A DNA stretch of 26,089 nucleotides, from contig JADFJI010000001.1 of NCBI GenBank assembly GCA_022566235.1, forward strand, positions 1 through 26,089, written 5' to 3'. This document shows positions 1-14,130 of this stretch, in pieces; position 1 is the first letter of the stretch; each line of letters starts with the position of its first letter. The stretch comes from Chloroflexota bacterium (lineage in GTDB: Bacteria; Chloroflexota; Dehalococcoidia; Plut-88900). The notes beneath the pieces were generated by a model. It did not search any database and was not told where the DNA came from. It was given only the letters and a program-made list of their open reading frames with translations. The translations under genes and the position numbers were made by a program.

Positions 1-136
1 ACCGGGAGGGTAGAGGGGCGGACCAGCGAGGGTTATTAAGACAACGAAGTGGCTAAAGGCAGTAACCGAAGCAGTTGATAAGCTGATCTCCGACCATCGG
101 AATAACGCCGTAACACGGATAGGGCAAGCCAGATTA

Positions 137-778
137 GTGGCCACTGCCGTCCATCTCCGCCAAGACCTCAGCAAGAATGAAAAAGGCAAAATATTGCGTC
201 GTTGGGAAAACGTGACCTTCCGCATATATGGCATGTTTGACAAGGATGCTCGAACGGCTGTAGGCGAATACGTTAGGCTCGCCTGGCGAATTGTTAATAA
301 GAATATCTCTGTCAGTAAGATTCTGGAGGAACTATCCGAAATAGGAGCTGAGTTCCCTATTGATGGGGCCGTAAAGAATATGCGCAAACGTAATTGCTAT
401 TCAGACTGGCAACAACAGCTTCGTTATTTTCTCTTTAGGTATGAGGAGCATTTAGCTGGAGAGGCCGGACAGGGCTTCAATAACGAACAGTGGAACCGTA
501 TTTGGGAGGCTAGCGCTGCTGATTCCATCGAACACATCCTCCCACAGAGTTCGGAATCTAAGTGTGTCCATTGGCTCGGCAATTTACTTATGCTACCGCC
601 GAAACTGAACTCTAAGTTAGGTGCAAAGCCTCCCAAAGCAAAGGCAGGCGAGTATGCGAAGACGGGTCTCCTAGCGGCCCAGGAGGTGGTGGATAGACTC
701 CCTAGGTGGCGACGGCGTGCAATCGAGGACCGCGAGACTAAGTTGCTACAATGGGCTTTACAGGAGTGGGCTGACTAG
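137..778 (+). CDS. C-terminal part of a GmrSD-family (DUF262-DUF1524) restriction/HNH nuclease; 5'-truncated
   Basis: HNH-type motifs SIEHILPQS and WLGNLLMLPPKLNSKLG typical of DUF1524. The frame is open from 14, with an in-frame TAG at 11-13 and no DUF262 domain. Sampled lines are about 42-48% GC versus about 60% in neighbouring genes. Confidence 0.8.
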   Translation: MATAVHLRQDLSKNEKGKILRRWENVTFRIYGMFDKDARTAVGEYVRLAWRIVNKNISVSKILEELSEIGAEFPIDGAVKNMRKRNCYSDWQQQLRYFLFRYEEHLAGEAGQGFNNEQWNRIWEASAADSIEHILPQSSESKCVHWLGNLLMLPPKLNSKLGAKPPKAKAGEYAKTGLLAAQEVVDRLPRWRRRAIEDRETKLLQWALQEWAD

Positions 779-980
779 GTATACCGATCGAGACCATCAA
801 GGAATTGTAAGCTCGGTAGCTGGCCCGTGGTACAGGGAGCAAGGGGATTGGTTTGGAATAGAGCTTCTTCCGTCTGTGTTGCAGATATTGCTCGCCTCAC
901 GGCACCTTAACCCGTCCAATAACGACCTTTGACCCAAAAGCATTGCGGGTATTGGCCACCCCGACCTGCGACTAGCTCCA

Positions 981-1035
981 TTCGACAAGTCCCGATACTC
1001 GGGACAAGCTCCCTTCGACTAGCTCAGTACAGGCT
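981..1035. repeat. Nested REP-like repeats: a TTCGACAAGCTC core interrupted by a 17-bp palindrome (989-1005), followed by a second unit CCCTTCGACTAGCTCAG
   Basis: The 17-mer is identical to 8190-8206. TTCGACTAGCTCA (1014-1026) is the exact reverse complement of 14555-14567. Confidence 0.85.
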
Positions 1036-1116
1036 AGTTCAATATGAGCGGGTTATTTTCACACACAACCCAACCTAGGCATCACTAGAAGGAGCGGCCT
1101 TCAAGGAGAATTTAAC

Positions 1117-2415
1117 ATGAGGCTGGAGCTTGCCGAGTTCGCCGTAAAGGATATTGTCTTCTCGGATTCGACCCATCTGTCCGACGGAGTTCTGTACGTA
1201 TCCCGGGAAGAGGTCCGCGATATCGTATTGCAGGACAGCCACTTCTCCAGCGTCGAGATGGACGTGGCCCGACCTGGGGATGAGACCCGAATCATCAACA
1301 TCCTGGACGTAATCGAGCCGAGGCGTAAGGTGTCGGGCCCCGGCACGGTGTTCCCGGGGGTGATCGGGCCTCCTACCACGGTAGGGGAGGGCAAGGACCA
1401 CACCCTGAAGGGCATGGCCCTAATCACCACAGGCCCCCCGGCCCCGGGTGAGGCCATCCACTGGCGAGATGGAATAATAGATATGTGGGGCGTAGGGGCC
1501 CGGTACACCCCCTTCTCCTCCACAGTAAACCTGGTGCTCCAGTTGAAGGGCAGGGAGGACTTCTCACCCGAAGAGCGGGAGCGGCTGGAGAGGATCGATG
1601 TTATAGACGGCTCTGCCTATGCCCAGGATTACAACAGGGCGGCCCGGGCCGCGGGCTTCCGGGTGGCGGAACACCTGGCCTCGGCCACCGGGGAGTCGGT
1701 GCCGGCCAGGGTCAAAACCTTCCACCTGGAGCCGCCCTCGACTTCCCTGCCCAGAGTCGCCTACATATGCCAGCTACATCGGGACCGGTGGCTGTACGGG
1801 GAAAAGATGGGCTGGCAACCCACCTTCCTTCACCCTAACGAGATGATGGACGGGGCCGTATTCAGCAGCTTCATGGGTCCGGCCAGTTCCCGGGACTGCT
1901 CTTATGTCTACCAAAACAATCCCATAGTGGCGGACCTCTACCAGCGTCACGGCAAGGAGATCGACTTCATAGGGGTGCTGGTCTGGTACTACGGCCCAAT
2001 GAGTTTGATGGAGAAGGAGCGTATCGGAGGATTCGCCACCAAACTACTCAGGATGCTGGATGTGGATGGGGCAGTGATGACCTGGATCGGGGACGGCCAA
2101 TCGGGTATAGACGTGATGATGATGTGCCAGAAGTTTGAGCAGGCGGGAATAAAGACCACCATGCTGAGCCCCGAGATGGCTAAGACCCCCGACGACCCGG
2201 GCTTCGTTCACTATGTTCCCGAGGCCGATGCCATCGTCAGCACCGGCAATTTCGAGGCGCCGGTGACATTAGAAAAACCCCAGACCGTGCTGGGCGGGAC
2301 TACTCTTTCAGTTCCCCACGTAGACGCATCGGGGCCCCTCTCCCTATCGGTAAGGTACATGTACGACTCGGTGAGCCCTCTGGGATACTCCAACCTGGCC
2401 GGCGTCATCTACTGA
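1117..2415 (+). CDS. Glycine/sarcosine/betaine reductase component B subunit-like protein (GrdE/GrdG/GrdI family), copy 1
   Basis: N-terminus MRLELAEFAVKDIVF, plus ARPGDETRIINILDVIEPRRKVSG, HPNEMMDGA and YVYQNNP, match the GrdE family layout. AAGGAG RBS upstream. Confidence 0.88.
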   Translation: MRLELAEFAVKDIVFSDSTHLSDGVLYVSREEVRDIVLQDSHFSSVEMDVARPGDETRIINILDVIEPRRKVSGPGTVFPGVIGPPTTVGEGKDHTLKGMALITTGPPAPGEAIHWRDGIIDMWGVGARYTPFSSTVNLVLQLKGREDFSPEERERLERIDVIDGSAYAQDYNRAARAAGFRVAEHLASATGESVPARVKTFHLEPPSTSLPRVAYICQLHRDRWLYGEKMGWQPTFLHPNEMMDGAVFSSFMGPASSRDCSYVYQNNPIVADLYQRHGKEIDFIGVLVWYYGPMSLMEKERIGGFATKLLRMLDVDGAVMTWIGDGQSGIDVMMMCQKFEQAGIKTTMLSPEMAKTPDDPGFVHYVPEADAIVSTGNFEAPVTLEKPQTVLGGTTLSVPHVDASGPLSLSVRYMYDSVSPLGYSNLAGVIY

Positions 2416-2450
2416 GCCGAATTCGCGGTAATGGCAGAGAGAAACATCCA

Positions 2451-3746
2451 GTGAAGCTGGAGATGGCAACCTTCCGAGTCCGTGACGTGGTCTTCTCCGA
2501 TGCCACCAGCCTGTCCCACGGGGTCCTCCATGTCGATAGGTCAAAAGTAGTCGAGCTGGTCACCGAGGGTCATCGATTCGCCGGAGCGGGGGTGCACCTG
2601 GTACGGCCTGGAGAGTCGGCCCGCCTTATCAACGTGCTGGATGCGGTGGAACCTCGATACAAGGTCTCCGGCCCGGGGGCCGTATTTCCGGGGGTCCTGG
2701 GACCACCCGTGACCGTCGGCCAGGGCCGGACCAACCGGCTGGCCAATCTCGTCGTCATGGTCACCAGCGAGCCCGTGCCCGATGAGCCCGTCTACTGGCG
2801 AGACGCCGTCCTGGATATGTCAGGCCCCGGCGCCGACTATAACCTCTTCTCGAACCATCTGATCCTGGTAATAGAGCTGAAGCCCTGCCTTGCCGATAGC
2901 AGGCCCGAGGCCAGGGGCCAGGTTACGACCAATCATGCCTGGGGCCCTCCCCACGTCCAGGAGCACAACATAAGCGCCCGGGCGGCGGGATTCCGGGTGG
3001 CGGAATACCTGGCCGAGTCTACCAGCAAGTTGACCCCCGATGAGGTCTCGACATACGAACTGGGACCGGCGGATGACAGTCTACCAAAGGTAGCCTGTTC
3101 ATCCCAGCTCATACTCCACCGTCTGTATGGCCAGGCCCTGGGCTGGCAGCCCACCTTCCTTCACCCCAACGAGCTAATGGACGGCTGCCTGTACAATCCT
3201 TATAACTCGCCCGCGTGCGGCAGGGAATCCACCTATTTCTTTCAAAACCATCCGGTCACTCAGCTGCTATACGGCAGGCACAACCGGGAGGTCAATTTCT
3301 TCGGGATGCTACTCCTTCGGTCCCAGGTCATATCATTGGAGGACAAGGAGCGGACCACCAGATACGCCGCCAAGCTTCTTCAAATGATGGGCATCGAGGG
3401 GCTGGTACTCACGTGGGCCGGGTCGGGGAACCCGGGTATGGATACCATGATGCTGGCCCGCAGGTGCGAACAGGTGGGGATCAAGACCACCGTCATCAAC
3501 TCGGAGATGTCCCTCACCCAGGACGACTCCGGGATAATCTATTTTCCATCCGAGGTAGACGCCGTGGTTTGTGCGGGAAACTACATGGAGTCCATCGCCC
3601 TTCCACCGGTGAAAAGGCTTTTAGGGGGAAGGAAGATAAACGATCCGGAGATGGAGGCCTCGGGCCCCTTATCATTGCCCCTGCGCTACCTGTATGGCGC
3701 CACCAACCTCACTGGGGCCAACCGGCTCTCCAGCATCTCATACTGA
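2451..3746 (+). CDS. Glycine/sarcosine/betaine reductase component B subunit-like protein, copy 2
   Basis: GTG start. Collinear paralog of 1117..2415, sharing ARAAGFRVAE and GWQPTFLHPNE blocks and the same C-terminal end point. Confidence 0.88.
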   Translation: MKLEMATFRVRDVVFSDATSLSHGVLHVDRSKVVELVTEGHRFAGAGVHLVRPGESARLINVLDAVEPRYKVSGPGAVFPGVLGPPVTVGQGRTNRLANLVVMVTSEPVPDEPVYWRDAVLDMSGPGADYNLFSNHLILVIELKPCLADSRPEARGQVTTNHAWGPPHVQEHNISARAAGFRVAEYLAESTSKLTPDEVSTYELGPADDSLPKVACSSQLILHRLYGQALGWQPTFLHPNELMDGCLYNPYNSPACGRESTYFFQNHPVTQLLYGRHNREVNFFGMLLLRSQVISLEDKERTTRYAAKLLQMMGIEGLVLTWAGSGNPGMDTMMLARRCEQVGIKTTVINSEMSLTQDDSGIIYFPSEVDAVVCAGNYMESIALPPVKRLLGGRKINDPEMEASGPLSLPLRYLYGATNLTGANRLSSISY

Positions 3747-3890
3747 TGCGGCAAGGCAGGGGGCCCCACTCCTGAGGCGTCGTAGTTTGAAGGCCGGTTT
3801 CGGATAGATTACCCTTTTTCAAGGCTGTATTCTAATAGCAGTGCTATAGGGCTTCTTTCCCAAGAACTGGTAATACAGAAAGCAAAATAG

Positions 3891-5009
3891 ATGACGACAC
3901 TTATCGATAGATCCACAACGCCCAGTGTTTCCGAGGAGAGCCGCTACTGGCAGGCGGTTCTGACCCGAGACCGCAGCTTCGATGGCTTTTTCGTCTACGG
4001 GGTCTCGTCTACCATGATCTACTGCCGCCCCATCTGTCCCAGTCGCCGTCCCCAGCGGGCCAAAGCTGCTTTTTTCTCGGGGCCCGAGGCCGCCGAGCTG
4101 GAGGGGTACCGGCCCTGCCGCCGCTGCCGACCCGACCAGGGAAGCCCTGATCAGCCACAGATAGAGATGGTGCTCAAAGCCTGCCGGTACATCCAACATT
4201 TGCAGGAGGAGACCCCCAGGCTTGCCCAACTCGCGGTGCAGATGAATGTTAGTCCCGGCCACCTGCAGCGGGTCTTTAAGCGCCTGATAGGGGTTACACC
4301 GCGCCAATACGCCGATGCCTGCCGCCGCGATCGGTTCAGGGTGCGGCTGAAAGAAGGAGGGAACGTAACCGCTGCGCTCTACGAAGCCGGTTATGGGTCA
4401 AGCAGCCGTCTCTATGAGCACTCGTCGGCCCATCTGGGCATGACCCCCGCCTCTTATGGGCGCGGAGGGCGAGGGGCAAGGATCGCCTACACCCTGGTGG
4501 ACTCGCCGATGGGACGCCTCCTCGTTGCGGCTACGAATCGAGGTGTATGTGCCGTTAAATTAGGCGACCGGGACTCGGAGCTCGAGGCCGACCTGAGGGC
4601 TGAATACCCCGCCGCAGAGCTTTATAGCGACCCGGCAAACCTCAAGGAGTGGGTCGAGACCCTGCTGGGCTACCTGCGTGGCGAGCTGCCCGACCTGGGC
4701 CTTCCCCTGGACATTAGAGCCACCGCCTTTCAGCGGTTGGTCTGGGAGCATCTCAGGTCAATCCCCTACGGGCAGACACGCACCTATCAGGAAGTGGCGG
4801 AAGCCCTGGGCCGGCCCAAGGCCAATAGGGCCGTTGCGAGGGCCTGCGCTACCAACCCTGTCTCGCTTGTGGTGCCATGTCATCGTGTGGTGCGCAAGGA
4901 CGGGGGCCTGGGCGGATACCGGTGGGGGTTGAATCGCAAGGAGCTTCTGCTGGCCAAAGAGCAAGCCCTGGCCTCCCCACCCCAAGCGCGCGCCAAAGTG
5001 ATGAAGTAG
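3891..5009 (+). CDS. ada: Bifunctional Ada regulator / O6-methylguanine-DNA methyltransferase
   Basis: Zn-binding YCRPICPSRRP and GYRPCRRCRP, an AraC-type HTH region, and a C-terminal PCHRV active site. Confidence 0.96.
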   Translation: MTTLIDRSTTPSVSEESRYWQAVLTRDRSFDGFFVYGVSSTMIYCRPICPSRRPQRAKAAFFSGPEAAELEGYRPCRRCRPDQGSPDQPQIEMVLKACRYIQHLQEETPRLAQLAVQMNVSPGHLQRVFKRLIGVTPRQYADACRRDRFRVRLKEGGNVTAALYEAGYGSSSRLYEHSSAHLGMTPASYGRGGRGARIAYTLVDSPMGRLLVAATNRGVCAVKLGDRDSELEADLRAEYPAAELYSDPANLKEWVETLLGYLRGELPDLGLPLDIRATAFQRLVWEHLRSIPYGQTRTYQEVAEALGRPKANRAVARACATNPVSLVVPCHRVVRKDGGLGGYRWGLNRKELLLAKEQALASPPQARAKVMK

Positions 5010-5053
5010 ATGAGCAGGAGGTGGGTTCCGGCCCCTGCTCCCGAGACCCGGGA

Positions 5054-5443
5054 CTAAGCGGGGTTTGGCACCAAACAGAACTCGTTGCCATCGAGATCGG
5101 CGACCACCACCCACCGCAGACCAGATTCCTCCACAACCGCCAGCTTTCGGCCGCCCAGGGCCTCAACTCGCTTGAGGGCCACGTCTACATCCGTCACGTC
5201 GATATCCAGGTGGACTCGAGTCTTGCTCGTCTTCTTCTCCGGGACCTTCTGCAGGTATATGATCGGACCGCCCTTTTGTTTTTCATAGAAGATGTACGGG
5301 CCGTCTCTCTCAGCCTCTTTCAGGCCCAGGACAGCCGACCAGAACCGGTCCGAGCGGTCTAGGTCTTCGACATCGATGCCGATCAGGGCAAGGGCTCCTA
5401 TCGGCCCTTCATTAGGACTATCGCTATTTTTTGTGGAACTCAA
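5054..5443 (-). CDS. VOC/glyoxalase family protein
   Basis: IGIDVEDLDRSDRFWSAVLG, RVHLDIDV and DLDGNEFCL motifs. TTG start with GGGGAG RBS. Confidence 0.88.
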   Translation of the reverse strand: MSSTKNSDSPNEGPIGALALIGIDVEDLDRSDRFWSAVLGLKEAERDGPYIFYEKQKGGPIIYLQKVPEKKTSKTRVHLDIDVTDVDVALKRVEALGGRKLAVVEESGLRWVVVADLDGNEFCLVPNPA

Positions 5444-5610
5444 AGATTGGTCTCCCCTCTGTCATACAGACACCAATTGATTCCCTGCCGATTGTCGATT
5501 TTCGCCTAGGCAAGGGTGATTCAGCCAAAGGCCCTGATGCCCGGGTCACGATTTACGCCTTGAGAGGTCGTCTGCTGAACGATCTGTTTCAGCACCAATG
5601 ACCCAAGCCA

Positions 5611-6456
5611 CTATTCAGCCGGCTCTTCGGGTATTTCAGGCGGCTTCAAATACGTTCTCAGCACACCCAGTGAGTAGCCGACTCCAAAGGTCATGCCGCC
5701 TCCGACAATGAGACCCCTGACCCCGGCTAGCACCGACATCGGGGTTACTCCTGCCTGCTGCAGCACAACTGTTAGGGCCAAACCGGTCATGGCTCCTATG
5801 AAGGTGCTGAATATAGTCCGTTTCCATGCGGGCATGGGTAGGAACCTTCCCAACCCTCTAGGCCGTCTGCGTCTCAGCTGAACCTTTAGCTTTAGCTTGG
5901 CATTCATCCCGTTGGACGCAAGTGCTGAACTGGCAAGCGCTCCCGCTCCAGCTACCGCTGCGGTCGCCGTAGAGGCGGTAGCGATCACGCCGCCAAAGCC
6001 CCCGACCCGTAAATCGAATTCCACCGTGCATATCTCGATACCATCATCGATCAACGTGCCTTCTACTTTATAGAGGCCCCGAATATTCGAAGGGAGTTCA
6101 TCGTCCAAGTCAATCTCGACAGGGGCCGAGCCGGGCGTTGGGTCTATATCACGAGTAATCTCGCCGAGATCGAAGCCGAACCCTACTACCGTAAGCCTTA
6201 CCTCTCGCCGCTGAGGGGGTGGATTCGGGTCTTCGACGCTTATGCGAATAAAACCGTCAGGTTCTACTCGCAGCGTGTTGTCATCGAGTATTGGGAGGAT
6301 GAAGGGTGACGGCTCACCGCCCTCTATACGGATGGAAGCTCCATTACATTCATCCGTTTGGGCTGCTGCCTCGCCGGCGGTGAAGTGTGATAAGGCGAAA
6401 GCAGCGAGGAAGAATAAAGCCAGGGATAAAAACAGGGCAAGATTCAAGCGAGGCAT
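5611..6456 (-). CDS. Hypothetical exported/membrane protein
   Basis: 281-aa ORF with an N-terminal hydrophobic signal ending AAAQ, a soluble domain, an Ala/Gly-rich hydrophobic stretch, a Lys/Arg-rich loop and two C-terminal TM-like segments. Confidence 0.75.
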   Translation of the reverse strand: MPRLNLALFLSLALFFLAAFALSHFTAGEAAAQTDECNGASIRIEGGEPSPFILPILDDNTLRVEPDGFIRISVEDPNPPPQRREVRLTVVGFGFDLGEITRDIDPTPGSAPVEIDLDDELPSNIRGLYKVEGTLIDDGIEICTVEFDLRVGGFGGVIATASTATAAVAGAGALASSALASNGMNAKLKLKVQLRRRRPRGLGRFLPMPAWKRTIFSTFIGAMTGLALTVVLQQAGVTPMSVLAGVRGLIVGGGMTFGVGYSLGVLRTYLKPPEIPEEPAE

Positions 6457-6477
6457 ACACCCTCCTTCAGAATGATG

Positions 6478-7908
6478 CTAGCACATGGGCCGGGCGAGAA
6501 CACCCGAGTCGATCTTACGAGGCAACAGCTTGCCATCGCCCAGCTTCCCCAGGAGCCTGCCATTCTCCACCACCACCTCGCCTCGAAGGATGGTCATGAC
6601 GGGCCAGCCCTGGACCTCCCATCCCTCCCAGGGGCTGTAATCGCTTCCGTGGAAATCGGACAGCTCCAAACGCTTCTTGATGCCGGGGTCTATCAGGGCT
6701 AGATCGGCGTCGCTGCCGGGGGCTATGGCCCCCTTTCTGGGATACAGGCCCAGAATCCTGGCAGCGTTGGTGGAGGTGATCGCGACGAACCGTTCCAGGG
6801 ACATTCCCAGCTTCACCACGCCCTCGGTGTAGGCGATGCCCATGCGGGCCTCGACACCCTCGCTGCCCCCGGTGGTATCCCCTATGGTCTCGCCCCTCAT
6901 CTTGTTAGCCTTCGAGGTGAACAGCTCGTCGGTGGCTAGGGTGGAAAGGGCGCCCCCCAACAGGCCGTTCCACAGGGCCTTGCGGTCTTCCTCCGACTTC
7001 AGGGAAGGGTAGGTGTGGTAGATAGCACCCTCGGGCTTCTCATAGTCCTCGTGGGTGAAGGAGGCGTAGTGATGGAGGGTCTCGCCATAGATGGGCAGGC
7101 CCTTGCCTCGGGCCTCGGAGATAGCCTCGACCCCCTCACGGGCGCTCACGTGGACCAGATACAGGGCGCTCCCCATCCACTCGGCCAGGCGGATGACCCG
7201 TCTGAAGGAGATGTCCTCCGACATGTTGTTGTGGACGTGGTGCATGTACTTTCGCTGGACTCGCCCCTCATGCTTCAGCTTCTTATACATGAACATGACG
7301 ATGTCTTCGTCCTCGGCATGGACGGCCATGATGCCGTTGTTGGCGGCCACATGCCCCATCATCTCGGCCAGGTGACCGATGTCCGTCATCTGTCGAGGGC
7401 GATCGGGCGTGGTGTTGGTCGTCCATACCTTAAAGCTGGGGTATCCCGCCTCTATGACCTCCTTGATCTGCTCCATGACCCCGAAGGGTAGGTCTCCCTT
7501 GGTGGAGTAGAGGGCGCAGTGGTAGGAGTAATCGGCATAGCTGTTGCCCTTGAAAATCTTCTCCTTGCCTTCCAGGGTCTGGAACAGGTCCTCTCCAGGC
7601 TCCCAGTAAGCGAAGTCTACAAGGGTGGTGGTGCCCCCGAAGAGGCAAGCGCGGCTTACCTCCTCGGGTCCCCCGGTATACAGCTTCTCCTCGGCGGCGG
7701 TGGGAATCATCCATGAGCAGTGGGTGTGGGGCTCGACTCCCCCGGGCACGACTATCTTGCCGGCCGCGTCTATGACCCGGGCCACATCCTGGGTCAGGAT
7801 GCCGGGCTGGGCAACGGCCACGATCTGCTCCCCCTTCACCGCGATGTCCCACTCCCCGACGCCCCACGGGGCCACAACTCGTCCCCCTCTAACGATCAGG
7901 TCCAGCAT
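6478..7908 (-). CDS. Dihydropyrimidinase/hydantoinase-like cyclic amidohydrolase
   Basis: MLDLIVRGGRVV start (ATG 7908, GGAAGGA RBS), PGGVEPHTH, SFK (carbamylated Lys position), HAED, HVS, ATD and GAIAPGSDADL motifs. Confidence 0.9.
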   Translation of the reverse strand: MLDLIVRGGRVVAPWGVGEWDIAVKGEQIVAVAQPGILTQDVARVIDAAGKIVVPGGVEPHTHCSWMIPTAAEEKLYTGGPEEVSRACLFGGTTTLVDFAYWEPGEDLFQTLEGKEKIFKGNSYADYSYHCALYSTKGDLPFGVMEQIKEVIEAGYPSFKVWTTNTTPDRPRQMTDIGHLAEMMGHVAANNGIMAVHAEDEDIVMFMYKKLKHEGRVQRKYMHHVHNNMSEDISFRRVIRLAEWMGSALYLVHVSAREGVEAISEARGKGLPIYGETLHHYASFTHEDYEKPEGAIYHTYPSLKSEEDRKALWNGLLGGALSTLATDELFTSKANKMRGETIGDTTGGSEGVEARMGIAYTEGVVKLGMSLERFVAITSTNAARILGLYPRKGAIAPGSDADLALIDPGIKKRLELSDFHGSDYSPWEGWEVQGWPVMTILRGEVVVENGRLLGKLGDGKLLPRKIDSGVLARPMC

Positions 7909-7984
7909 GGCAAGTCCTTCCTGCACTCTCGCAGTCTTAGGTCAGGTCGTCTCCCTATAGGCTTTACCAGAGGTGGTGTAGAAA

Positions 7985-8053
7985 CCCTCACCCCCTCTGT
8001 CCCCCTCTCCCCCTTCGGCAAGCTCAGGGCATGCTTGGGAGGGAGAGGGGGAG
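7985..8053. repeat. REP-like hairpin TCCCCCTCTCCC/GGGAGAGGGGGA with a CCTTCGGCAAGCTCAGGG unit inside its loop
   Basis: Perfect 12-bp stem, 8000-8011 with 8041-8052. The inner TTCGGCAAGCTCA (8014-8026) matches the repeat core at 1014 and 14512. Confidence 0.85.
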
Positions 8054-8065
8054 AAAATAAATATG

Positions 8066-8219
8066 GTCCCGACTAGTCGGGACATACCCGCCACCATCCC
8101 GACTCATCGGGATGGAATCCCCCCGAATGGGAGTGGGGGACACCTTTCAATAGATTCAGGACAAGCCCCCAAACCCCCGGTCCCGACTCGTCCCGATACT
8201 CGGGACTCGGCGTCGGGAC
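8066..8219. repeat. Cluster of TCCCGA-N-TCGGGA short palindromes
   Basis: GTCCCGACTAGTCGGGAC (8066-8083), CCATCCCGACTCATCGGGATGG (8094-8115), and a nested pair at 8180-8219 containing the 17-mer at 8190-8206. Confidence 0.9.
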
Positions 8220-8388
8220 ACTTCCCTTTTCAAGAAGCTTCTTTAACGGCCTGCAAATTTGGTTCCAGGGACTGCTATCAACCATAAGTCCTCCGACCTC
8301 GGCCTCCGTTCATTCAGATAACGGACCCCTCCGGATCGAGGCCTTTTGGCACTCTTCCATGCGGGCAACGTTGTCCGAGCTACGGCAG

Positions 8389-9681
8389 CTATCCGAGATT
8401 GTCAGGATAGTCCATGCCGATGTGCCCGGCATCCTCCAGCCGCCTATACTCCTGTTCGGTAGTCCCCAGAAGCTCCTTATAGGCCCACTCGTTGTGCTCT
8501 CCCAGCATGGGAGATGGAAAACGGATGCGGTTGGGGGTCTCGGCCATCTTCCACATCATGCCGGGATACAGGTGTGTGCCGGTGGCCGGCTGGGTAAGCT
8601 CCTCGAAATAGCCCCGAGAGCGCATCTGTGGGTCCGCGAAGAGCTCCCCCTGGTCGTAAACCGGGGCCGCTGGAACCCCATTTGCCTGCAACAGGTGCAT
8701 GAGCTGGATGTGGTCCCGATCCGTGGTCCACTCCGCCAGGTGGCTGTCTATCTCGTCCTGGAGTCGGTATCTGCCCAGCACCGTGGCCAGGGCCGGGTCC
8801 CGGGCCCATTCCGGATCGCCCATGACCTGGCGCAGGCTTTCCCACTCCTCGTCGGTCCCTATCGATATGACCAGCCAGTTGTCCCGACCCTTGCAAGGAT
8901 AGCATCCCTGGGGCGCACGGGACGGATGGCCGTTGCCCAGGGGCCCCTGGACCCGTCGATTCATGACGTAGTCCATTATCGCTTCTCCGACATAGGAGAC
9001 CGTCGCCTCCGCTGTCGGGACCTCTATCAGCTGGCCCTCTCCGGTATTTCTTCGGTGATACAAGGCCGCGACGATAGCGAACGCAGCGGTGACTCCCCCG
9101 ATGGCATCGCTCAGGTAGGTAGTACCCTTGGTATAAGGGGGCGCGTCCCTGTACCCCCGAATCCAGGTATGGCCCGCCACCGATTCCATGTGGGACCCGA
9201 AGGCCCGGTAGTTGGCGTATGGGCCGCTGAGGCCGAAGGCCGGCACCCGGGCCAGTATGACGTCGGGCCTGACCTCCTTTAGCATCCCGTAAGTCACCCC
9301 CAGCTTGTCGTAGGTCTGCGGCACGTTGTTCTCGATCACCACGTCAGAAATACTGACCAGCCGGAGAAACGTTTCCATGCAGTCGGGGTTGGGAAGGTTA
9401 GAGGTCATACTCAGCTTGTTCCTGCCATGGAGTTGGAAGAGGACGTTGCGATTCCAGTGGCGGTCTCCCGGATCGCCGCCAGGGTAATCGTTGGTGTAGT
9501 CGGTAATGCCTCTCTTGATAGGACGAACGCCTGGAGCCCGGGTCATGGGCTGGAAGACCTGCAGGGGTTCGACGCGAATGACCTCGGCCCCCCAATCGGC
9601 CAGAAGCTGGGCGCAGAAGGGGCCCACCCAAACCAGGGTCTGATCCACGACTCGCACGCCCTCCAGAGGTAAATTTCCCAT
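8389..9681 (-). CDS. Class III (CaiB/BaiF) CoA-transferase, Asp-bearing subunit (pair 1)
   Basis: VWVGPFCAQLLADWGAEVIRVE, HGRNKLS, DVVIEN, and the catalytic-position Asp192 in LSDAIGG. The start overlaps the upstream stop (TAATG). Confidence 0.93.
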   Translation of the reverse strand: MGNLPLEGVRVVDQTLVWVGPFCAQLLADWGAEVIRVEPLQVFQPMTRAPGVRPIKRGITDYTNDYPGGDPGDRHWNRNVLFQLHGRNKLSMTSNLPNPDCMETFLRLVSISDVVIENNVPQTYDKLGVTYGMLKEVRPDVILARVPAFGLSGPYANYRAFGSHMESVAGHTWIRGYRDAPPYTKGTTYLSDAIGGVTAAFAIVAALYHRRNTGEGQLIEVPTAEATVSYVGEAIMDYVMNRRVQGPLGNGHPSRAPQGCYPCKGRDNWLVISIGTDEEWESLRQVMGDPEWARDPALATVLGRYRLQDEIDSHLAEWTTDRDHIQLMHLLQANGVPAAPVYDQGELFADPQMRSRGYFEELTQPATGTHLYPGMMWKMAETPNRIRFPSPMLGEHNEWAYKELLGTTEQEYRRLEDAGHIGMDYPDNLG

Positions 9682-10904
9682 TAGATTACGTCCATCTGAC
9701 GCAGGCGGCTCAGGTCACTGGGGCTGTATCCCAGCAGACCGCAATAGATATCCGTGTTGTGCTGGCCCAGGGTGGGCGCGGGCCTTCTTACTCGCCACGG
9801 GGTGGCACCCATCAGGATCTGACGCCCCGGGTATTCCAGAAGGCCTGAATCCCCACTCTCCACCTTGGTCCAGAGACCCCTTATCCGGAAGTGAGGGTCT
9901 TCCAGTACGCCCGACGAGTCGTATAGGGGCGCGGTCAGGACCCTGTGCTCCTGAGTCTTGGCCCATATCTCCCGCTGGGTGCGCTGACTCAGCCAGTCCA
10001 GGAGCCTCCTTTCCAGGGCCTCTACCTTGACCCGATCTTCTGATGTCTCGGAGACGACGGCCAAGGGTCCCCGCAACGGCTCAGCGCCATCCATCATCGC
10101 TATCAGCCTGGGCATCCGCTCCCTGGCCCGAACGTCGATGTAGCCGTCCTTGCATGGGTAGATGGTGCCCAGATACGATCCCTGGGTCTCGAGGCGGGAG
10201 AAGCGGTTGCCGGTGTACTGATGATTCACCAGCATAGCCGTCTGCCGGTCAACGGAGCCGGCCTGAGTCTCCATGATGGATATGTCGATATGGTCGCCAC
10301 GGGCGTCTCGCTGATTTCTATACACCGCCATGAGGGTGGCAACGGCCGCCATCTGGCCGGCTAGGAAGAGGCCGACATTAGCACCCAGCTTCACCGGCTC
10401 GCGTCCCGAGGTGCCGGTGAAGAGCATCGGCCCACCTATGGCATATTCGATTATCTCGGTGGCCTTGTAGTCCCGATACGGTCCCGTCTGGCCGAAGTTG
10501 GAGATGGAGGTCATGACCAGGCCCGGCTTTAGCCGGGTCAATCGGGAGTACGTAAGGCCCAGCCGGTCCATCACCCCGGGCCGGAAATTTTCCACAACCA
10601 CATCGGCCCACTTTACCAGCTCTCCGAAGATCCTAGCCCCTGCGGCAGCCTTGAGGTTGAGGGTGATTCCAACCTTGTTATGGTTCAGATGCAGGAAAGC
10701 GCCGCTCTTCTCTGCATGGGGGTGGTCCCGGAGAAAGGGCCCCATCCTCCGCCCCGGGTCTCCCTGGCCGGGCCTCTCAACCTTGATCACCTCGGCCCCG
10801 TAGTCGGCCAGCAGCCTGGTGCAGAAGGGCCCGGCCACGTAGTGGGTAAGGTCCAATACTTTTACACGGCCCAGGGCCTGTGAGTTAGCGAGATTAGTAT
10901 TCAT
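9681..10904 (-). CDS. Class III (CaiB/BaiF) CoA-transferase, subunit lacking the catalytic Asp (pair 1)
   Basis: VLDLTHYVAGPFCTRLLADYGAEVIKVE, ADVVVENFRPG and SISNFGQTGPY motifs. Start set at ATG 10904 rather than 10982. Leu occupies the Asp position (NVGLFLAG). Confidence 0.92.
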   Translation of the reverse strand: MNTNLANSQALGRVKVLDLTHYVAGPFCTRLLADYGAEVIKVERPGQGDPGRRMGPFLRDHPHAEKSGAFLHLNHNKVGITLNLKAAAGARIFGELVKWADVVVENFRPGVMDRLGLTYSRLTRLKPGLVMTSISNFGQTGPYRDYKATEIIEYAIGGPMLFTGTSGREPVKLGANVGLFLAGQMAAVATLMAVYRNQRDARGDHIDISIMETQAGSVDRQTAMLVNHQYTGNRFSRLETQGSYLGTIYPCKDGYIDVRARERMPRLIAMMDGAEPLRGPLAVVSETSEDRVKVEALERRLLDWLSQRTQREIWAKTQEHRVLTAPLYDSSGVLEDPHFRIRGLWTKVESGDSGLLEYPGRQILMGATPWRVRRPAPTLGQHNTDIYCGLLGYSPSDLSRLRQMDVI

Positions 10905-11001
10905 CCGTAAGCTTGGCCTGGCGGTTCCAGCTGAACTGGGACCACAGGAGTTAAATATAGCCCCCACGTGTATCTCAGGCAAGAGCCTTGGAGGAGGAGA
11001 A

Positions 11002-11030
11002 TTGACTTTCCCAGCCTCCAGGATTAAGGT
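11002..11030 (+). promoter_or_regulatory. Putative sigma70-type promoter for the LLM gene
   Basis: TTGACT-N17-TAAGGT, 45 nt upstream of ATG 11076. Confidence 0.55.
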
Positions 11031-11075
11031 CGCGTCTGCTCTGGTTCAAGTCTACGGGGGGTAAGTAGGTTTTGC

Positions 11076-12008
11076 ATGGCCGATATTAAGATCGGGTTCC
11101 ACTACAGCAGGCTATACGACCTGGTCCCTATTCCCGAGTTTGCCAGGCTCGCTGAGGAGATGGGTCTGGACTCCGTCTGGCTGCCCGAGGGCCTGGTAAA
11201 CGAGGTCCCTGCCCTGGACATCCTGATGGGCATGAGCGGATTCGTACATCACACCCGGAATATCACCGTAGGGGCAAGCGTTGTGCTGCTTCCTTTGAGA
11301 AATCCAGTCGTACTAGCAAAGGAGGTGTCGACCCTGGACCTGCTCTCGGGCGGAAGAGTGGTGCTGGGGATCGGGGTAGGAGGCCCTCCCGACTCCAACC
11401 CGGCCTCTTTCCAGGCCTGCGGAGTGAGCATGAGGGAGCGGGGCGCCCGCACCGACGAGGCCCTGGAGATCATGACCAAGCTGTGGACCGGGGCCCCGGT
11501 TAGCCACCAGGGCAGGTTCTACAGCTTCCAGGACATCGTGATGGAGCCCCGCCCAGCCCAACGGCCCCATCCACCTATATGGGCCGGAGGCGCCTCTGAT
11601 GGGATGCTTCGGAGAGCGGCCCACTGGTGCGATGGGTTTGTGCCGGTAGGCGTGAATCCTGAGGAGTATGGCGCGCTTTGGGACCGGATACAGCGGTACG
11701 GAGAGGCGTACCAGAGAGACACCACCGGCATGACCAAGGCGGTCCACCTGTTCTACCGCATCGGCGATAGCCGGGAGGAGGCCCGACGGACCGGCGAGGA
11801 GGTGCTGAACAGGCGCAGGGGGTTCGCTTTGACCCTGGCCGACGATGACAGATATGCCTTCGGCACGGCCGGGGACTGCATGCGAACGGTCGAGAGGTTC
11901 GTGGATGCGGGGATCACCCATTTCATATTCAACGCCCTGGTCCCCGATGCCGAGGTCATGGGACAGGTGGAGCGGCTAGTGGAGGAGATAGTCCCCTACT
12001 TTAAGTAG
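11076..12008 (+). CDS. Luciferase-like monooxygenase (LLM) family oxidoreductase, probably F420-dependent
   Basis: AEEMGLDSVWLPE, LPLRNPVVLAKEVSTLDLLSGGRVVLGIGVG, RGARTDEALE and PPIWAGG motifs. F420 dependence is inferred. Confidence 0.9.
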   Translation: MADIKIGFHYSRLYDLVPIPEFARLAEEMGLDSVWLPEGLVNEVPALDILMGMSGFVHHTRNITVGASVVLLPLRNPVVLAKEVSTLDLLSGGRVVLGIGVGGPPDSNPASFQACGVSMRERGARTDEALEIMTKLWTGAPVSHQGRFYSFQDIVMEPRPAQRPHPPIWAGGASDGMLRRAAHWCDGFVPVGVNPEEYGALWDRIQRYGEAYQRDTTGMTKAVHLFYRIGDSREEARRTGEEVLNRRRGFALTLADDDRYAFGTAGDCMRTVERFVDAGITHFIFNALVPDAEVMGQVERLVEEIVPYFK

Positions 12009-12107
12009 CAATTCCCTGTGCTGGTTGCCGCGGGCGCCATAAAGATTGAGCCAGGGTTGATAAGGAACTGAATGGGGCCGTCTCAAAACAACATCCCAGA
12101 CAACGGG

Positions 12108-12380
12108 TTATCCGGTGGCTATGGCGTCCCAGAGGACCCAGCCCTCTTTGCCGTCGCCGTAGCGTATGTGGGCCCTCTGGGATAAAGAGCCGTATACATC
12201 CTTCTGCTCTTCAAATACGGTGACGTCGATGGTGTCCTGGATCTCGTCCAACACCTTGGAGCCCTCCACGGCGCTCATGGGCTCGCTCCAGACTCGAACT
12301 GTGCCGTTCCACTTCTTCAGGGTCTCTTTGCTCACCTTGGCCTGATAAGGCTCAACTTCCTCAATCTTGTTCATCGCCAT
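12108..12380 (-). CDS. Small hypothetical protein, possibly SH3-like beta-barrel
   Basis: 90 aa with a GAGGAGG RBS inside the dnaJ 3' end and a 20-nt overlap with dnaJ. The C-terminus RAHIRYGDGKEGWVLWDAI resembles bacterial SH3b endings. Confidence 0.7.
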   Translation of the reverse strand: MAMNKIEEVEPYQAKVSKETLKKWNGTVRVWSEPMSAVEGSKVLDEIQDTIDVTVFEEQKDVYGSLSQRAHIRYGDGKEGWVLWDAIATG

Positions 12381-13455
12381 CGTGTTCCGATCGCCTCCTC
12401 AGTTTCTGAAACCTCTCTAGCAACTCCTTCTCGCTTCGACTGAGGCCCGTGGGGGTGACCACCTTGACCACAACGTACTGGTCCCCCGTTCCATACCCGT
12501 CAGAGCGGGGCAACCCGCCTCCAGGTATCTTAACTACAGTCCCAGGTTGAGTGCCCTCAGGCACATCGATGTCGACATCACCGTTCAGGCTCGGGACCTG
12601 GACCCTACCTCCCAGGGCCAGGGTTGTGATGTCTATTTCCTGCCTGAGAAATATGTCGTCCCCCTGACGTTCGAAGACGGGGTGTTGCAGGACGTTGACC
12701 ACAATATACAGGTCCCCGGGCAGGCTCTCACCTCCCTCGCCCTCACCTGTCATTTTGATTGCGTATCCGGTGTCGGCACCGGCAGGAATGTCGACCTTGA
12801 TCTCTACCGTCTCCCGGATTCTCCCAATCCCATCGCAAGTCTTACACGGGCCCGTGATGATGGCCCCCGTACCCCCACAGGTGGCACAGGTGGTGATCTG
12901 CCTGACCACCCCGAAGTCCACTATCTCCTGCCTCACCGACTGTCCAGTCCCCCGGCACGTACTACACTCGATGCGGCCTCCGACCTCGGCCCCTGTGCCA
13001 CTGCATCCCGGGCACCTGGACGTCCTGGATATCTGGGCTGTCTTCTGGACGCCCCGGGCCACCTCCTCCAGGGTTACCTCCAGGTCGTACCTGAGGTCGG
13101 ACCCTCTTCGAGACCTGCTACGCCGACCGGCCGAAGCTCCGAAGACTCCGCCGAACAGGTCACCCAGGCCAAATTCCCGAAAGAGCATCGAGAAGTCGAC
13201 GCTCCTGAAGATGTCCTCCTGGGTGTAACCTTCCAGGCCCGAATGGCCGTAGCTATCATAGAGGCTGCGGTTCTTTTCGTCGCTCAGTACCGCGTAGGCC
13301 TCGTTCACCTGCTTCATCTTTTCGGCGGCCTCTGAGTTCCCCGGATTCCTATCGGGGTGGTACTTCATAGCCATGGTACGGTAGGCCGTCTTTATGGCCT
13401 GGGCATCCGCACCCTGGTTAGTCCCCAGGACTTCGTAGTAGTCCTGTTTGGGCAT
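12361..13455 (-). CDS. dnaJ: Class A DnaJ/Hsp40 co-chaperone
   Basis: J-domain with HPD, a G/F region with DIF, four CxxCxGxG repeats, and the C-terminal GDLY and PEGTQPG motifs. Confidence 0.96.
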   Translation of the reverse strand: MPKQDYYEVLGTNQGADAQAIKTAYRTMAMKYHPDRNPGNSEAAEKMKQVNEAYAVLSDEKNRSLYDSYGHSGLEGYTQEDIFRSVDFSMLFREFGLGDLFGGVFGASAGRRSRSRRGSDLRYDLEVTLEEVARGVQKTAQISRTSRCPGCSGTGAEVGGRIECSTCRGTGQSVRQEIVDFGVVRQITTCATCGGTGAIITGPCKTCDGIGRIRETVEIKVDIPAGADTGYAIKMTGEGEGGESLPGDLYIVVNVLQHPVFERQGDDIFLRQEIDITTLALGGRVQVPSLNGDVDIDVPEGTQPGTVVKIPGGGLPRSDGYGTGDQYVVVKVVTPTGLSRSEKELLERFQKLRRRSEHDGDEQD

Positions 13456-13460
13456 GCAGC

Positions 13461-13619
13461 TCAGCCTCCGATGTACTTCCAGCTAACCCCATCCCAGGAA
13501 TAGATGGCGGTACCGCAACTGCGGCACAGGATAGTGGTAGTCTCGCTCTCCCTCTGCTTGCTGCTTCTGACCAGCTTCTTACACCTGGTGCAGTAGATCT
13601 TTTTGGACAGTAAGTCCAT
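13461..13619 (-). CDS. Small zinc-ribbon protein (52 aa)
   Basis: CTRC and CRSC pairs. ATG 13619 has a GAGGA RBS. Its 3' end carries the GGAGG RBS of dnaJ. Confidence 0.75.
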   Translation of the reverse strand: MDLLSKKIYCTRCKKLVRSSKQRESETTTILCRSCGTAIYSWDGVSWKYIGG

Positions 13620-13870
13620 CGACAATCCTCTGTTCCTTCTCTCCAGCTCTGGCCCGTGCCCTCCGACTGGCAAAATCCCCAGAATAACCCGACTTCGAGC
13701 TAATCGAAGGTCGGCGGCCTCAACGCTGGCTAAAAACTTTTCCTATATGAACTCCGGCTCTATTAGCGCCAATCTAATAACCAAATTGAAATGTGCCTGC
13801 CTGTCCAGGGTTTTGTTCACCGCAATTCAAGGACAGTTGTCTATATCCAGGTAGAATACCAGCGCGCCCA

Positions 13871-14077
13871 TTAGCTGTTGGCCGGCGGATGCTGTCTGAA
13901 GGGAGGCTTCGATGGAGCCCTGACATAGTAGTCTACTTTAGAAGCTGAAGCCGACACCAGTTTCTGGCCCTTGGCCCCACAGGAAGGACACGAAGCGGGG
14001 GCGTCCGACTGGCTCATCGGGCGCATGAGCTCGAACTCCTTTCGACAGCTGGCACAGTAATACTCATATATCGCCAA
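13871..14077 (-). CDS. FmdB-family zinc-ribbon protein
   Basis: MAIYEYYCASCRKEFE...CPSCG...KLVS signature. TTG start with GGAGG RBS. Confidence 0.9.
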   Translation of the reverse strand: MAIYEYYCASCRKEFELMRPMSQSDAPASCPSCGAKGQKLVSASASKVDYYVRAPSKPPFRQHPPANS

Positions 14078-14130
14078 GGAGACCTCCGGCGACGACCCTT
14101 TCCCCTGGTTGGGTCGGCCTTACTTTTTCG

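What the first reader, a model, noticed from the sequence alone, without database searches (positions are those of the whole stretch)
987..1007. 17-bp hairpin behaving like an ultra-small insertion element with 2-bp target duplications
GTCCCGATACTCGGGAC (7-bp arms, 3-nt loop) occurs identically at 989-1005 and 8190-8206. The first copy is flanked by AA...AA and the second by TC...TC, so the 2-bp direct repeat differs per site, as a target-site duplication would. Deleting the element plus one AA restores TTCGACAAGCTC, the core of the REP-like family seen elsewhere in the window. Deleting it plus one TC restores GTCCCGACTCGGCGTCGGGAC, a clean member of its own palindrome family. This points to a mobile unit far smaller than ordinary MITEs that targets other hairpins. 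No mobilising enzyme is encoded here. Only two copies support this, so the mechanism is inference.
Basis: partly seen in the sequence, partly recalled or inferred. Interest (0 to 1): 0.72.

Follow-up and report, generated by a model that had tools for sequence, protein, structure and literature searches.

The report
17-base mobile hairpin nested in hairpins
A 17-base DNA palindrome, present in at least 110 identical copies in this uncultured marine-sediment Chloroflexota genome, behaves like one of the smallest mobile DNA elements reported in bacteria: it lands in the loops of other hairpin repeats and duplicates two bases, and no enzyme that moves it has been identified.

Summary
GTCCCGATACTCGGGAC is the most frequent 17-mer of the 2.39-Mb MAG. 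There are 110 exact copies and about 95 copies with 1-2 mismatches. None was found in 40 GTDB relatives.

The flanking dinucleotides match in 61 of 104 copies (shuffle expectation 26). The same 17-mer in other genomes has matching flanks in 2 of 51 cases. Removing the element plus exactly 2 nt restores a 16-mer found elsewhere in the genome for 42 of 105 copies. Removing 0, 1, 3, 4 or 6 nt does so for 0-2 copies. None of the other frequent palindromes in this genome shows this signature.

The target is GAC-NN-GTC at the loop centre of other REP-like hairpins. A roughly 93%-identical relative carries the element plus a TT duplication exactly where the window has an empty hairpin (8066-8083), a clean 19-bp difference.

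I found no Y1/RAYT, rve, DDE or TnpB gene. The only small GIY-YIG gene is an Ssn-like nuclease flanked by SRM-like modules whose core hairpin resembles the 17-mer. This is a lead, not a demonstrated link. The mechanism is unresolved.

I class it as a new variant of the rarely described "very small mobile repeats". Earlier reports of this scan noted similar 20-base palindromes on other DNA.

The parts
989..1005 (+). Copy 1 of the 17-bp palindrome (7-bp arms, loop TAC)
   Evidence: Exact match. Intergenic, between a GmrSD_C gene fragment (137-778) and a glycine-reductase B gene (1117-2415). Shared with 99.5%-identical strains L067-L069. The 93% relative L065 carries it with one substitution.
987..988 (.). 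Left copy of the AA duplication at site 1
   Evidence: Read directly. The right copy is at 1006-1007.
1006..1007 (.). Right copy of the AA duplication at site 1
   Evidence: Read directly. The doubled form without the element (TTCGACAAAAGCTC) occurs 0 times in the genome.
981..1011 (+). Host unit of site 1: TTCGAC-AA-GCTC interrupted by the element
   Evidence: The restored TTCGACAAGCTC occurs 34 times in the genome and 0 times elsewhere in the window.
8190..8206 (+). Copy 2 of the 17-bp palindrome
   Evidence: Exact match. Intergenic, between an amidohydrolase gene (6478-7926, -) and a CoA-transferase gene (8389-9681, -). In relative L065 this stretch is replaced by a different repeat module.
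8180..8219 (+). Host hairpin of site 2: GTCCCGAC-TCGGC-GTCGGGAC, carrying the element and the TC duplication (8188-8189 and 8207-8208)
   Evidence: The restored 21-mer occurs 7 times in the genome and its 17-nt core 11 times. The nested fold is -14.9 kcal/mol as single-stranded DNA.
8066..8083 (+). Empty target hairpin GTCCCGAC-TA-GTCGGGAC. The orthologous site in a related lineage is filled.
   Evidence: Alignment A2 and the BLAST indel list: L065/REL has GTCCCGAC-TT-[17-mer]-TT-GTCGGGAT here. This is a clean 19-bp difference, one of only 7 indels of 8 bp or more in about 36 kb of aligned orthologous DNA.

Best explanation
GTCCCGATACTCGGGAC is a lineage-specific, non-coding, very small mobile DNA unit. 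New copies are placed at the centre of a short symmetric target, GAC-NN-GTC, which is normally the loop of another REP-like hairpin. The two central bases end up on both sides of the insert, so each event adds 19 bp (17 + 2). Shown: the unit boundaries, the 2-nt duplication, the target consensus, many independent contexts, mutational decay of old copies, and one clean filled/empty orthologous pair. Inferred: a protein acting in trans makes cuts staggered by 2 nt in the target (on double-stranded DNA or on an extruded hairpin), and repair fills the gaps. The protein is not identified. It is either missing from this 80%-complete MAG or belongs to an unrecognised type. The one small Ssn-like GIY-YIG single-strand nuclease of the genome is the only candidate with any circumstantial tie.
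For: It is the most frequent 17-mer of the genome, and copy number drops as soon as the word is extended by one base on either side (110 -> 83 or 65). There are 110 exact, 60 one-mismatch and 35 two-mismatch copies, and the changes are not compensatory. Flanking dinucleotides are equal in 61/104 copies against 26 +/- 3.8 after shuffling. They are equal in 2/51 occurrences of the same 17-mer in other genomes. Removing the element plus 2 nt restores an existing 16-mer for 42/105 copies (411 empty sites), against 0-2 copies for 0, 1, 3, 4 or 6 nt. Of the 39 frequent palindromic words tested, only the 17-mer (in its two orientations, and as its 15-nt core at a 4-nt shift) shows this signature. Doubled empty sites do not exist in the genome. 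There are 58 distinct flank contexts, 33 of them with a matching pair, using 8 different dinucleotides. One host family holds both TT/TT and CT/CT members, which points to independent events. Target consensus: C at -3 and G at +3 in 58/62 copies each. A relative at about 92.6% nucleotide identity has a clean 19-bp filled site where the window is empty, and three other sites are shared, with mutated copies in the relative. None of 40 GTDB relatives has the 17-mer. 93/110 copies lie outside crude ORFs in a genome that is 82% coding.
Against: No transposase with matching ends was found: no Y1_Tnp, rve, DDE_3, DDE_Tnp_1, TnpB or RT. There is only a broken IS110-like gene and two large serine recombinases at contig ends. 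41% of exact copies lack matching flanks, more than point mutation alone predicts. The target flanks (GAC..GTC) mirror the element's own ends (GTC..GAC), which a homology-guided process would explain better than a classical transposase. With the loop read as TAC, the duplicated bases are mostly pyrimidines (28 contexts against 5), which a symmetric double-strand mechanism does not predict. Some host families are 75-85% occupied, so part of the copy number may come from spread of composites or from conversion. The direction (gain or loss) of the one clean polymorphism is unknown, and its TT/TT flanks do not match the window's TA.
Confidence: 0.7

Rival explanations
1. Templated copy-choice or short-patch gene conversion, with no dedicated enzyme. 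During replication or repair of a hairpin loop, the nascent strand switches at the GAC/GTC microhomology to an already filled hairpin elsewhere. It copies the 19 bp and switches back. The 17-mer then spreads among hairpins that share arm sequences.
For: Target flanks and element ends are mutually homologous. Each insertion creates 6-8-bp direct repeats such as GACTTGTC on both sides of an 11-13-bp core (read). Hybrid flanks such as TT|TC-GGCGTC are what a switch at GAC alone would give. The loop orientation is tied to the flanking dinucleotide (TT 33: AA 6; TC 16: GA 0). Particular host families are heavily occupied. The filled site in the relative has TT/TT while the empty allele has TA.
Against: Matching duplications of 8 different dinucleotides occur, including singleton non-hairpin contexts (CA, GG, AG, CT, CC). 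There no filled donor with that dinucleotide is available, so the duplication must have been made at the target. CT/CT and TT/TT members occur in the same host family. No other abundant hairpin of this genome with equally homologous arms shows such nesting.
Confidence: 0.17
2. Site-specific recombination with a 2-nt crossover core, as in serine recombinases or IS110-type enzymes. The element's joined ends (GGGAC-NN-GTCCC) and the target (GAC-NN-GTC) would be equivalent sites. The flanking dinucleotide would be the shared crossover core, not a repair-made duplication.
For: The target is symmetric around a 2-nt centre. The joined element ends would recreate the target consensus. Orientation is tied to the asymmetric dinucleotide. 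Two large serine recombinases and a broken IS110-like gene are present.
Against: A 19-bp double-stranded circle is physically implausible (general knowledge). Known serine-integrase sites are about 40-50 bp, and IS110 donors need a bridge RNA carried by the element (general knowledge of these families). A shared core would have to match between donor and target, yet 8 different dinucleotides are seen. None of these genes is flanked by intact copies; there is only a 3-mismatch relic 43 bp after the C191 gene.
Confidence: 0.06
3. The 17-mer does not insert on its own. The nested hairpins are fixed composite repeats (BIME-like mosaics) that spread as whole units, or the 17-mer is a selected binding or structural motif.
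For: Several filled copies share 20-40 bp of flanks with each other. The genome is rich in modular mosaic repeats.
Against: The same 17-mer sits in 58 distinct contexts and at least 5 unrelated host families, each of which also has empty members. There is a clean 19-bp orthologous indel between lineages in otherwise conserved unique sequence. Mutations break the stem without compensation. There is no orientation bias relative to genes, and the copies lie in all kinds of intergenic context.
Confidence: 0.05

Closest known systems
Small dispersed repeats SDR4-6 of Nostoc punctiforme and relatives (Elhai et al. [quoted passage not shown] The paper is not held in the library. Its existence and gist come from citations in PMC3116915, PMC2884548 and PMC5861425; the details come from my own knowledge.
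   Same: Both are high-copy dispersed repeats far below MITE size. Both are found nested in other repeats and palindromes (SDR5 in HIP1, per PMC5861425). Both are inferred to be mobile, and neither has a known enzyme.
   Different: SDRs are 21-27 nt and were reported only from Nostocaceae (PMC5861425). This unit is 17 bp, in a Chloroflexota MAG. It has a quantified 2-bp duplication and a defined symmetric target, GAC-NN-GTC.
GC clusters of yeast mitochondrial DNA, e.g. GC42 (PMC4478555), and ultra-short invasive elements of Podospora mtDNA (Koll et al. 1996; not held)
   Same: These are short GC-rich palindromes with a putative 2-nt target duplication (AG). They show filled/empty homologous positions, merging and nesting of units, and an unknown mobilising activity.
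   Different: They are organellar, 30-60 nt long, and sit in AT-rich genomes with intron-encoded endonucleases or reverse transcriptases as suspects. Here the element is in a bacterial chromosome, is 17 bp, the duplicated dinucleotide varies, and no reverse transcriptase was found.
REP/REPIN elements with RAYT (Y1 HUH) transposases, and BIME mosaics (PMC3116915)
   Same: These are abundant extragenic palindromes with a master sequence and a cloud of mutated copies, clustered in mosaics.
   Different: No Y1_Tnp gene was found. REPINs are doublets of about 100 bp, and HUH single-strand transposition leaves no target duplication (general knowledge of IS200/IS605).
Ssn nucleases and their SRM/NTS hairpin repeats (Chenal et al. 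2025, PMC11893778)
   Same: The genome has one 94-residue single-domain GIY-YIG gene flanked on both sides by inverted hairpin modules that carry GTCATTC...GAATC. The same layout is seen in 11 relatives, as described for SRM-ssnA-SRM. The core hairpin of several modules (GTCCCGA-TACAA-TCGGGAC) is the 17-mer plus 2 loop bases.
   Different: The 17-mer lacks the oriented SRM flanks that Ssn needs for binding and cutting. Ssn is a hydrolytic nuclease with no known joining activity. Ssn-like genes occur in 20/41 relatives, but the 17-mer occurs only in this genome.
Bacterial MITEs with 2-bp duplications, e.g. Correia/NEMIS (TA) and IS630-derived MITEs (my own knowledge)
   Same: They have terminal inverted repeats plus a 2-bp direct duplication, and are non-autonomous.
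   Different: MITEs are 50-500 bp, have a fixed TA target and a recognisable parent IS. Here the element is 17 bp, the dinucleotide varies, and no DDE_3 or other parent was found.

Membership tests
MITE (miniature inverted-repeat transposable element) | Terminal inverted repeats | tested here: met
   7-bp perfect arms GTCCCGA/TCGGGAC; DNA hairpin -6.4 kcal/mol.
MITE (miniature inverted-repeat transposable element) | Target-site duplication of fixed length | tested here: met
   The duplication is 2 bp. 61/104 copies match, and the remove-plus-2 test is specific.
MITE (miniature inverted-repeat transposable element) | Derived from, and mobilised by, an autonomous IS with the same ends | tested here: not met
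   No rve, DDE_3, DDE_Tnp_1, Y1_Tnp or TnpB gene was found. The only transposase-like gene is a broken IS110-like one without these ends. Caveat: the MAG is 80% complete and IS copies often fail to assemble.
MITE (miniature inverted-repeat transposable element) | Size of roughly 50-500 bp | tested here: not met
   The element is 17 bp.
REP/REPIN-RAYT system | A RAYT (Y1 HUH transposase, PF01797) gene flanked by the repeats | tested here: not met
   0 matches in G000, while the control genomes gave matches.
REP/REPIN-RAYT system | Insertion without target duplication (single-strand HUH chemistry) | tested here: not met
   A 2-bp duplication is present.
Small dispersed repeats (Elhai 2008) | Dispersed repeats of 21-27 nt, nested in other repeats, with filled/empty orthologous sites | tested here: inconclusive
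   Nesting and one filled/empty pair are shown here. The length (17 nt) and the host phylum fall outside the description. The paper could not be read, so its exact criteria were not checked.
Ssn-related motif (SRM) of Ssn GIY-YIG nucleases | Hairpin with conserved oriented flanks (GTC upstream, C just after the palindrome) | tested here: not met
   The 17-mer's flanks are the variable target dinucleotide and host arms. About 40 separate modules of the form TGTCATTCTGAG-hairpin-CGAAGAATCTA do carry such flanks. These modules do not fit the published degenerate SRM pattern letter for letter (read by eye).
Ssn-related motif (SRM) of Ssn GIY-YIG nucleases | Repeats flank the ssnA gene on both sides | tested here: met
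   This holds for the modules, not for the 17-mer itself. The layout is seen at C21:7267-7548 and in homolog loci L079-L089. Membership of the protein in cd10448 was not tested, because no CDD search is available. Pfam GIY-YIG matched at E = 7e-15.

The most novel reading that the evidence does not exclude
The 17-mer is the bare core hairpin of this lineage's Ssn-related motif and has become independently mobile. A small single-strand-specific GIY-YIG nuclease (Ssn-like), or an unknown partner, would cut extruded hairpin loops at C-NN-G, and host repair would paste in a 17-nt hairpin. That would be a nuclease-driven way of moving DNA with no transposase. It would explain how hairpin repeats of the REP/SRM kind multiply, and it would define the smallest known mobile DNA unit in bacteria.
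Probability: 0.12. Interest if true: 0.88.

Novelty: new variant of a known kind. Interest (0 to 1): 0.68.

Why it matters
How short extragenic palindromes multiply in bacterial genomes has been open for about forty years. Only the REP-RAYT pair has a proposed mechanism. This element has unusually clean genetics for that question: a fixed 17-bp unit, a measurable 2-bp duplication, a defined symmetric target in hairpin loops, and turnover between lineages that are about 7% diverged. If the mover can be found, it would set a new lower size limit for mobile DNA. It could also yield a protein that recognises and cuts or joins at small DNA hairpins. There is a practical point too. Copies are enriched 2.3-fold at contig ends, so such elements fragment metagenome assemblies.

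Tried and rejected
1. Population variants from public runs: Logan contigs of four marine-sediment runs were laid on window 1-20000. The contigs break at the repeats (for example they start at 1013 and end at 8027), so no filled/empty alleles could be read. This is uninformative, not negative.

These were useful only as a control for flank matching. Two multi-hit MAGs (Calditrichota, Saprospiraceae) carry the 17-mer inside larger repeats with identical flanks and no duplication.

3. Viral contigs: two single hits, not followed up.

4. Protein-guided scan of JGI metagenome contigs: it found only relatives at 67% identity, too distant for site comparison.

6. Strand bias: the 17-mer's orientation does not follow the local GC-skew sign (31/76, p = 0.14) or the majority gene strand (34/76). 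The proxies are weak on short contigs. There is also no bias relative to flanking gene direction.

7. RNA reading: no Rfam family reaches its gathering score in the window. There is no orientation bias, so I rejected a terminator or sRNA reading.

8. Chance or assembly artefact: rejected, because copies have 58 different contexts and are present in independent assemblies (L065, L067-L069, L101).

9. Elhai 2008 and Koll 1996 could not be read.

10. Site C3:4549 against lineage L102: the whole repeat block differs, so no clean comparison was possible.

Full report
**Observation.** The 17-mer GTCCCGATACTCGGGAC (7-bp arms, loop TAC) is at 989-1005 and 8190-8206 on the + strand. Chance expectation in the window is 0.01 matches.
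- Both sites are intergenic. The first lies between a GmrSD_C gene fragment and a glycine-reductase B gene. The second lies between an amidohydrolase gene and a CoA-transferase gene.
- No transposase or nuclease gene lies in the window, and no Rfam family matches.
TTCGACAAGCTC has no exact copy elsewhere in the window. It has 34 copies in the genome.

**Genome-wide census.** The window is contig C168 of a 2.39-Mb MAG with 402 contigs, 59% GC and 80% completeness. It comes from marine sediment. Sources name the close homologues' organisms Chloroflexota or Dehalococcoidia.
- The 17-mer is the most frequent 17-mer of the genome, with 110 exact copies (60 +, 50 -).
- Copy number drops as soon as the word is extended by one base (83 or 65), so the unit boundaries are sharp.
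- There are 60 further copies with one mismatch and 35 with two. The changes break the stem without compensation, so this looks like decay and not selection for structure.
- None of 40 GTDB relatives, including 11 genomes of the same family, has a single copy.
- 93 of 110 copies lie outside crude ORFs in a genome that is 82% coding. There is no orientation bias relative to neighbouring genes.
- 25 of 110 copies lie within 300 nt of a contig end, against 10% expected. The element breaks assemblies, so 110 is a lower bound.

**Is the 2-bp duplication real?** Five tests and controls say yes.
1. Flanking dinucleotides are equal in 61 of 104 copies, against 26 +/- 3.8 after shuffling. Neighbouring offsets give 0-5 matches.
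2. Removing the element plus t bases of the right flank and asking whether the joined 8+8-mer exists elsewhere in the genome gives 42 of 105 copies (411 empty sites) for t = 2. It gives 0, 0, 1, 2 and 0 copies for t = 0, 1, 3, 4 and 6. The 14 copies at t = 5 coincide with another hairpin family.
3. Internal control: of the 39 most frequent palindromic words of this genome, only the 17-mer shows this signature (in both orientations, and as its 15-nt core at t = 4). The other families, including a 24-bp palindrome with 52 copies and the host hairpins themselves, do not.
4. External control: the same 17-mer in 51 loci of other genomes has equal flanks in 2 cases, about the 1/16 expected by chance.
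5. Doubled sites without the element (CCCGACTTTTGTCGGG, CCCGACTCTCGGCGTC, TTCGACAAAAGCTC) occur 0 times.

After collapsing copies into 58 distinct flank contexts, 33 contexts have a matching pair. They use 8 different dinucleotides: TT 17, TC 8, AA 3, CT 2, CA 2, CC 1, GG 1, AG 1. The match rate falls with the age of the copy: 60%, 62%, 41% and 24% for 0, 1, 2 and 3 mismatches.

**Target.** In the copies with a duplication, the base before it is C and the base after it is G in 58 of 62 cases each. The wider consensus is GAC-NN-G(T/G/C)C. In practice this is the loop centre of other hairpin repeats:
- CCCGAC-TT-GTCGGG (32 empty sites);
- CCCGAC-TC-GGCGTC (11 empty sites);
- GAGC-TT-GTCGAA, which is TTCGAC-AA-GCTC on the other strand (15 for the 14-mer, 34 for the 12-mer);
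- several singleton contexts.

One copy has landed at the junction of an older, mutated copy, giving old copy-GG-new copy-GG on C69. The nested product folds as a two-storey DNA hairpin (-15 kcal/mol against -6.4 for either hairpin alone).

**Independent events or spread of composites?** Some filled copies share 20-40 bp of flanks. Two such host families are 6/8 and 6/7 occupied, so hot spots, conversion or spread of composites must contribute. But one of these families holds TT/TT members and a CT/CT member. Two parallel mutations are unlikely, and a duplication made at a CT variant of the target explains it directly (seven empty CCCGAC-CT-GTCGGG sites exist).

**Orthologous evidence.** I recovered contigs of related lineages through clusters of proteins at 90% identity or more.

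Against one relative (ENA ERZ1643211, about 92.6% nucleotide identity) I aligned about 50 kb in total:
- The first ~36 kb, from the contig orthologous to the window, holds only 7 indels of 8 bp or more. One is a clean 19-bp difference. The relative has GTCCCGAC-TT-[17-mer]-TT-GTCGGGAT where the window has the empty hairpin GTCCCGAC-TA-GTCGGGAC at 8066-8083.
- The copy at window 989 is shared; the relative's copy has one substitution.
- Two copies on C398 are shared. The relative's versions have two substitutions in one case and a mutated flank in the other.
- The copy at C91:3411 faces a plain hairpin in the relative, but the difference is 9 bp. It fits an insertion followed by a 10-bp slippage deletion between the two TCGGGAC arms.
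- At window 8190 the relative carries a different repeat module.

A second lineage (GCA_022572865.1) has an entirely different module where C3:4549 sits. Strains at 99.5% identity share the site-1 copy.

So there has been turnover since these lineages split. Only one case is clean, its direction (gain or loss) is unknown, and the TT/TT flanks against the TA of the empty allele need one extra step under any model.

**Search for a mover.** In the 80%-complete MAG I found:
- no Y1_Tnp/RAYT, rve, DDE_3, DDE_Tnp_1, TnpB or reverse transcriptase;
- one broken IS110-like gene (C350), not flanked by the element;
- two large serine recombinases cut by contig ends, one with a 3-mismatch relic 43 bp downstream;
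- besides UvrC, one small GIY-YIG gene (C21:7267-7548, - strand).

Reading Chenal et al. 2025 (PMC11893778) showed the following:
- The gene has the described SRM-ssnA-SRM layout. It is bracketed by inverted modules of the form TGTCATTCTGAG-hairpin-CGAAGAATCTA.
- The 11 relatives' homolog loci examined show the same kind of module on one or both sides of the gene.
- The genome holds about 40 such modules.
- The module at the 3' end of the gene carries a nested 17-mer. Several modules have the core hairpin GTCCCGA-TACAA-TCGGGAC, which is the 17-mer with two extra loop bases.

This is suggestive but weak. Ssn-like genes occur in 20 of 41 relatives that lack the 17-mer. The 17-mer lacks the oriented flanks that Ssn needs. 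Ssn is known only as a hydrolytic single-strand nuclease.

**Mechanism.** The shown facts are: a 19-bp increment made of a constant 17-mer and a copy of the local dinucleotide, a symmetric target, many independent contexts, and decay.

My preferred reading (0.7 for a mobile unit with a true target duplication) is a trans-acting protein that makes cuts staggered by 2 nt at C-NN-G, followed by repair.

Three observations do not fit a classical symmetric transposase and keep the rivals alive:
- The target flanks mirror the element's ends.
- With the loop read as TAC, the duplicated bases are pyrimidine-rich (28 contexts against 5; TT 33: AA 6 and TC 16: GA 0 by copies).
- 41% of intact copies have unequal flanks, including TT|TC hybrids.

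These points fit a strand-specific or homology-guided process: copy-choice between hairpins (0.17) or exchange at a 2-nt core (0.06). Proxies for replication-strand bias gave nothing.

**Comparison and novelty.**
- The nearest described things are the 21-27-nt small dispersed repeats of Nostocaceae. They are cited as possibly mobile, as inserting in HIP1, and as not found outside that family.
- The palindromic GC clusters of yeast mitochondria have a putative 2-nt duplication and an unknown mover.
- It is not a REPIN/RAYT system, not a PATE, not a classical MITE, and not itself an SRM (see the membership tests).
- Earlier reports of this scan describe 20-24-base mobile palindromes beside tiny GIY-YIG genes in other phyla. 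These are unchecked AI notes. I tested only the GIY-YIG/SRM layout, and only in this genome and its relatives.
- I rate this a new variant of a known but barely studied kind. It is 17 bp, has a quantified 2-bp duplication and a defined hairpin-loop target, and sits in a new phylum.

Noticed in passing
G000 contig C21:7150-7620 (locus L071:1380-1770); homolog loci L079-L089: The single small (94-residue) GIY-YIG gene of the genome is bracketed by inverted hairpin modules of the form TGTCATTCTGAG-hairpin-CGAAGAATCTA. This is the SRM-ssnA-SRM layout of the Ssn single-strand nuclease family (PMC11893778). The 11 relatives' homolog loci show the same kind of module beside the gene. About 40 solitary modules with variable, apparently covarying inner stems are scattered over G000.
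   Followed up: partly
Relative genome G019 (same class), many contigs: G019 holds 21 matches to the Ssn-like GIY-YIG protein. Many have internal stops or are cut by contig ends, which suggests this small nuclease gene is itself proliferating or mobile in some lineages.
   Followed up: no
Genome-wide, e.g. C350:3385-3410: A 24-bp perfect palindrome, CCCCCTTCCTGGCCAGGAAGGGGG, occurs 52 times (74 for its 17-nt core). It shows no insertion signature at any offset. It is a second abundant hairpin family of unknown role.
   Followed up: partly
Window 1-1116 against L065:9812-10001 and L067:1338-3353: In this lineage a GmrSD (type IV restriction-like) gene, edged by REP-like repeats, sits between two glycine-reductase B genes. 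Those genes are adjacent in the 93% relative. This is a gene-sized insertion bounded by the repeat mosaic.
   Followed up: partly
Window 8180-8358 against L065:19090-19250; C3:4400-4560 against L102:2925-3010: Whole repeat modules in orthologous intergenic spacers are swapped for unrelated modules between lineages that are only 6-8% diverged, while the unique flanks stay aligned. Turnover of the hairpin mosaic is very fast.
   Followed up: partly
G000 C69:2355-2390: A tandem pair: a mutated copy (GTCCCGATGCTCGGAAC), then GG, then a perfect 17-mer, then GG. A new copy seems to have landed at the junction of an old one, since each junction recreates the GAC-NN-G target.
   Followed up: partly
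G000 C350:1-1150: A broken IS110-family transposase gene (pieces of 130 and 77 residues) lies at a contig start. It is the only transposase-like gene detected with the families searched.
   Followed up: partly
G000 C191:1-1540 and C323:2500-3342: Two large serine recombinase genes (Resolvase + Recombinase + zinc ribbon domains) are both truncated by contig ends. The C191 gene is followed 43 bp later by a decayed, 3-mismatch 17-mer inside a host hairpin.
   Followed up: partly
Window 5023-5070: Contigs of two other sediment runs skip 46 bases here, with 13 other letters in their place in run X5. A third run has a 9-base insertion at 5023. This is a small variable segment just downstream of the Ada-like methyltransferase gene.
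   Followed up: no
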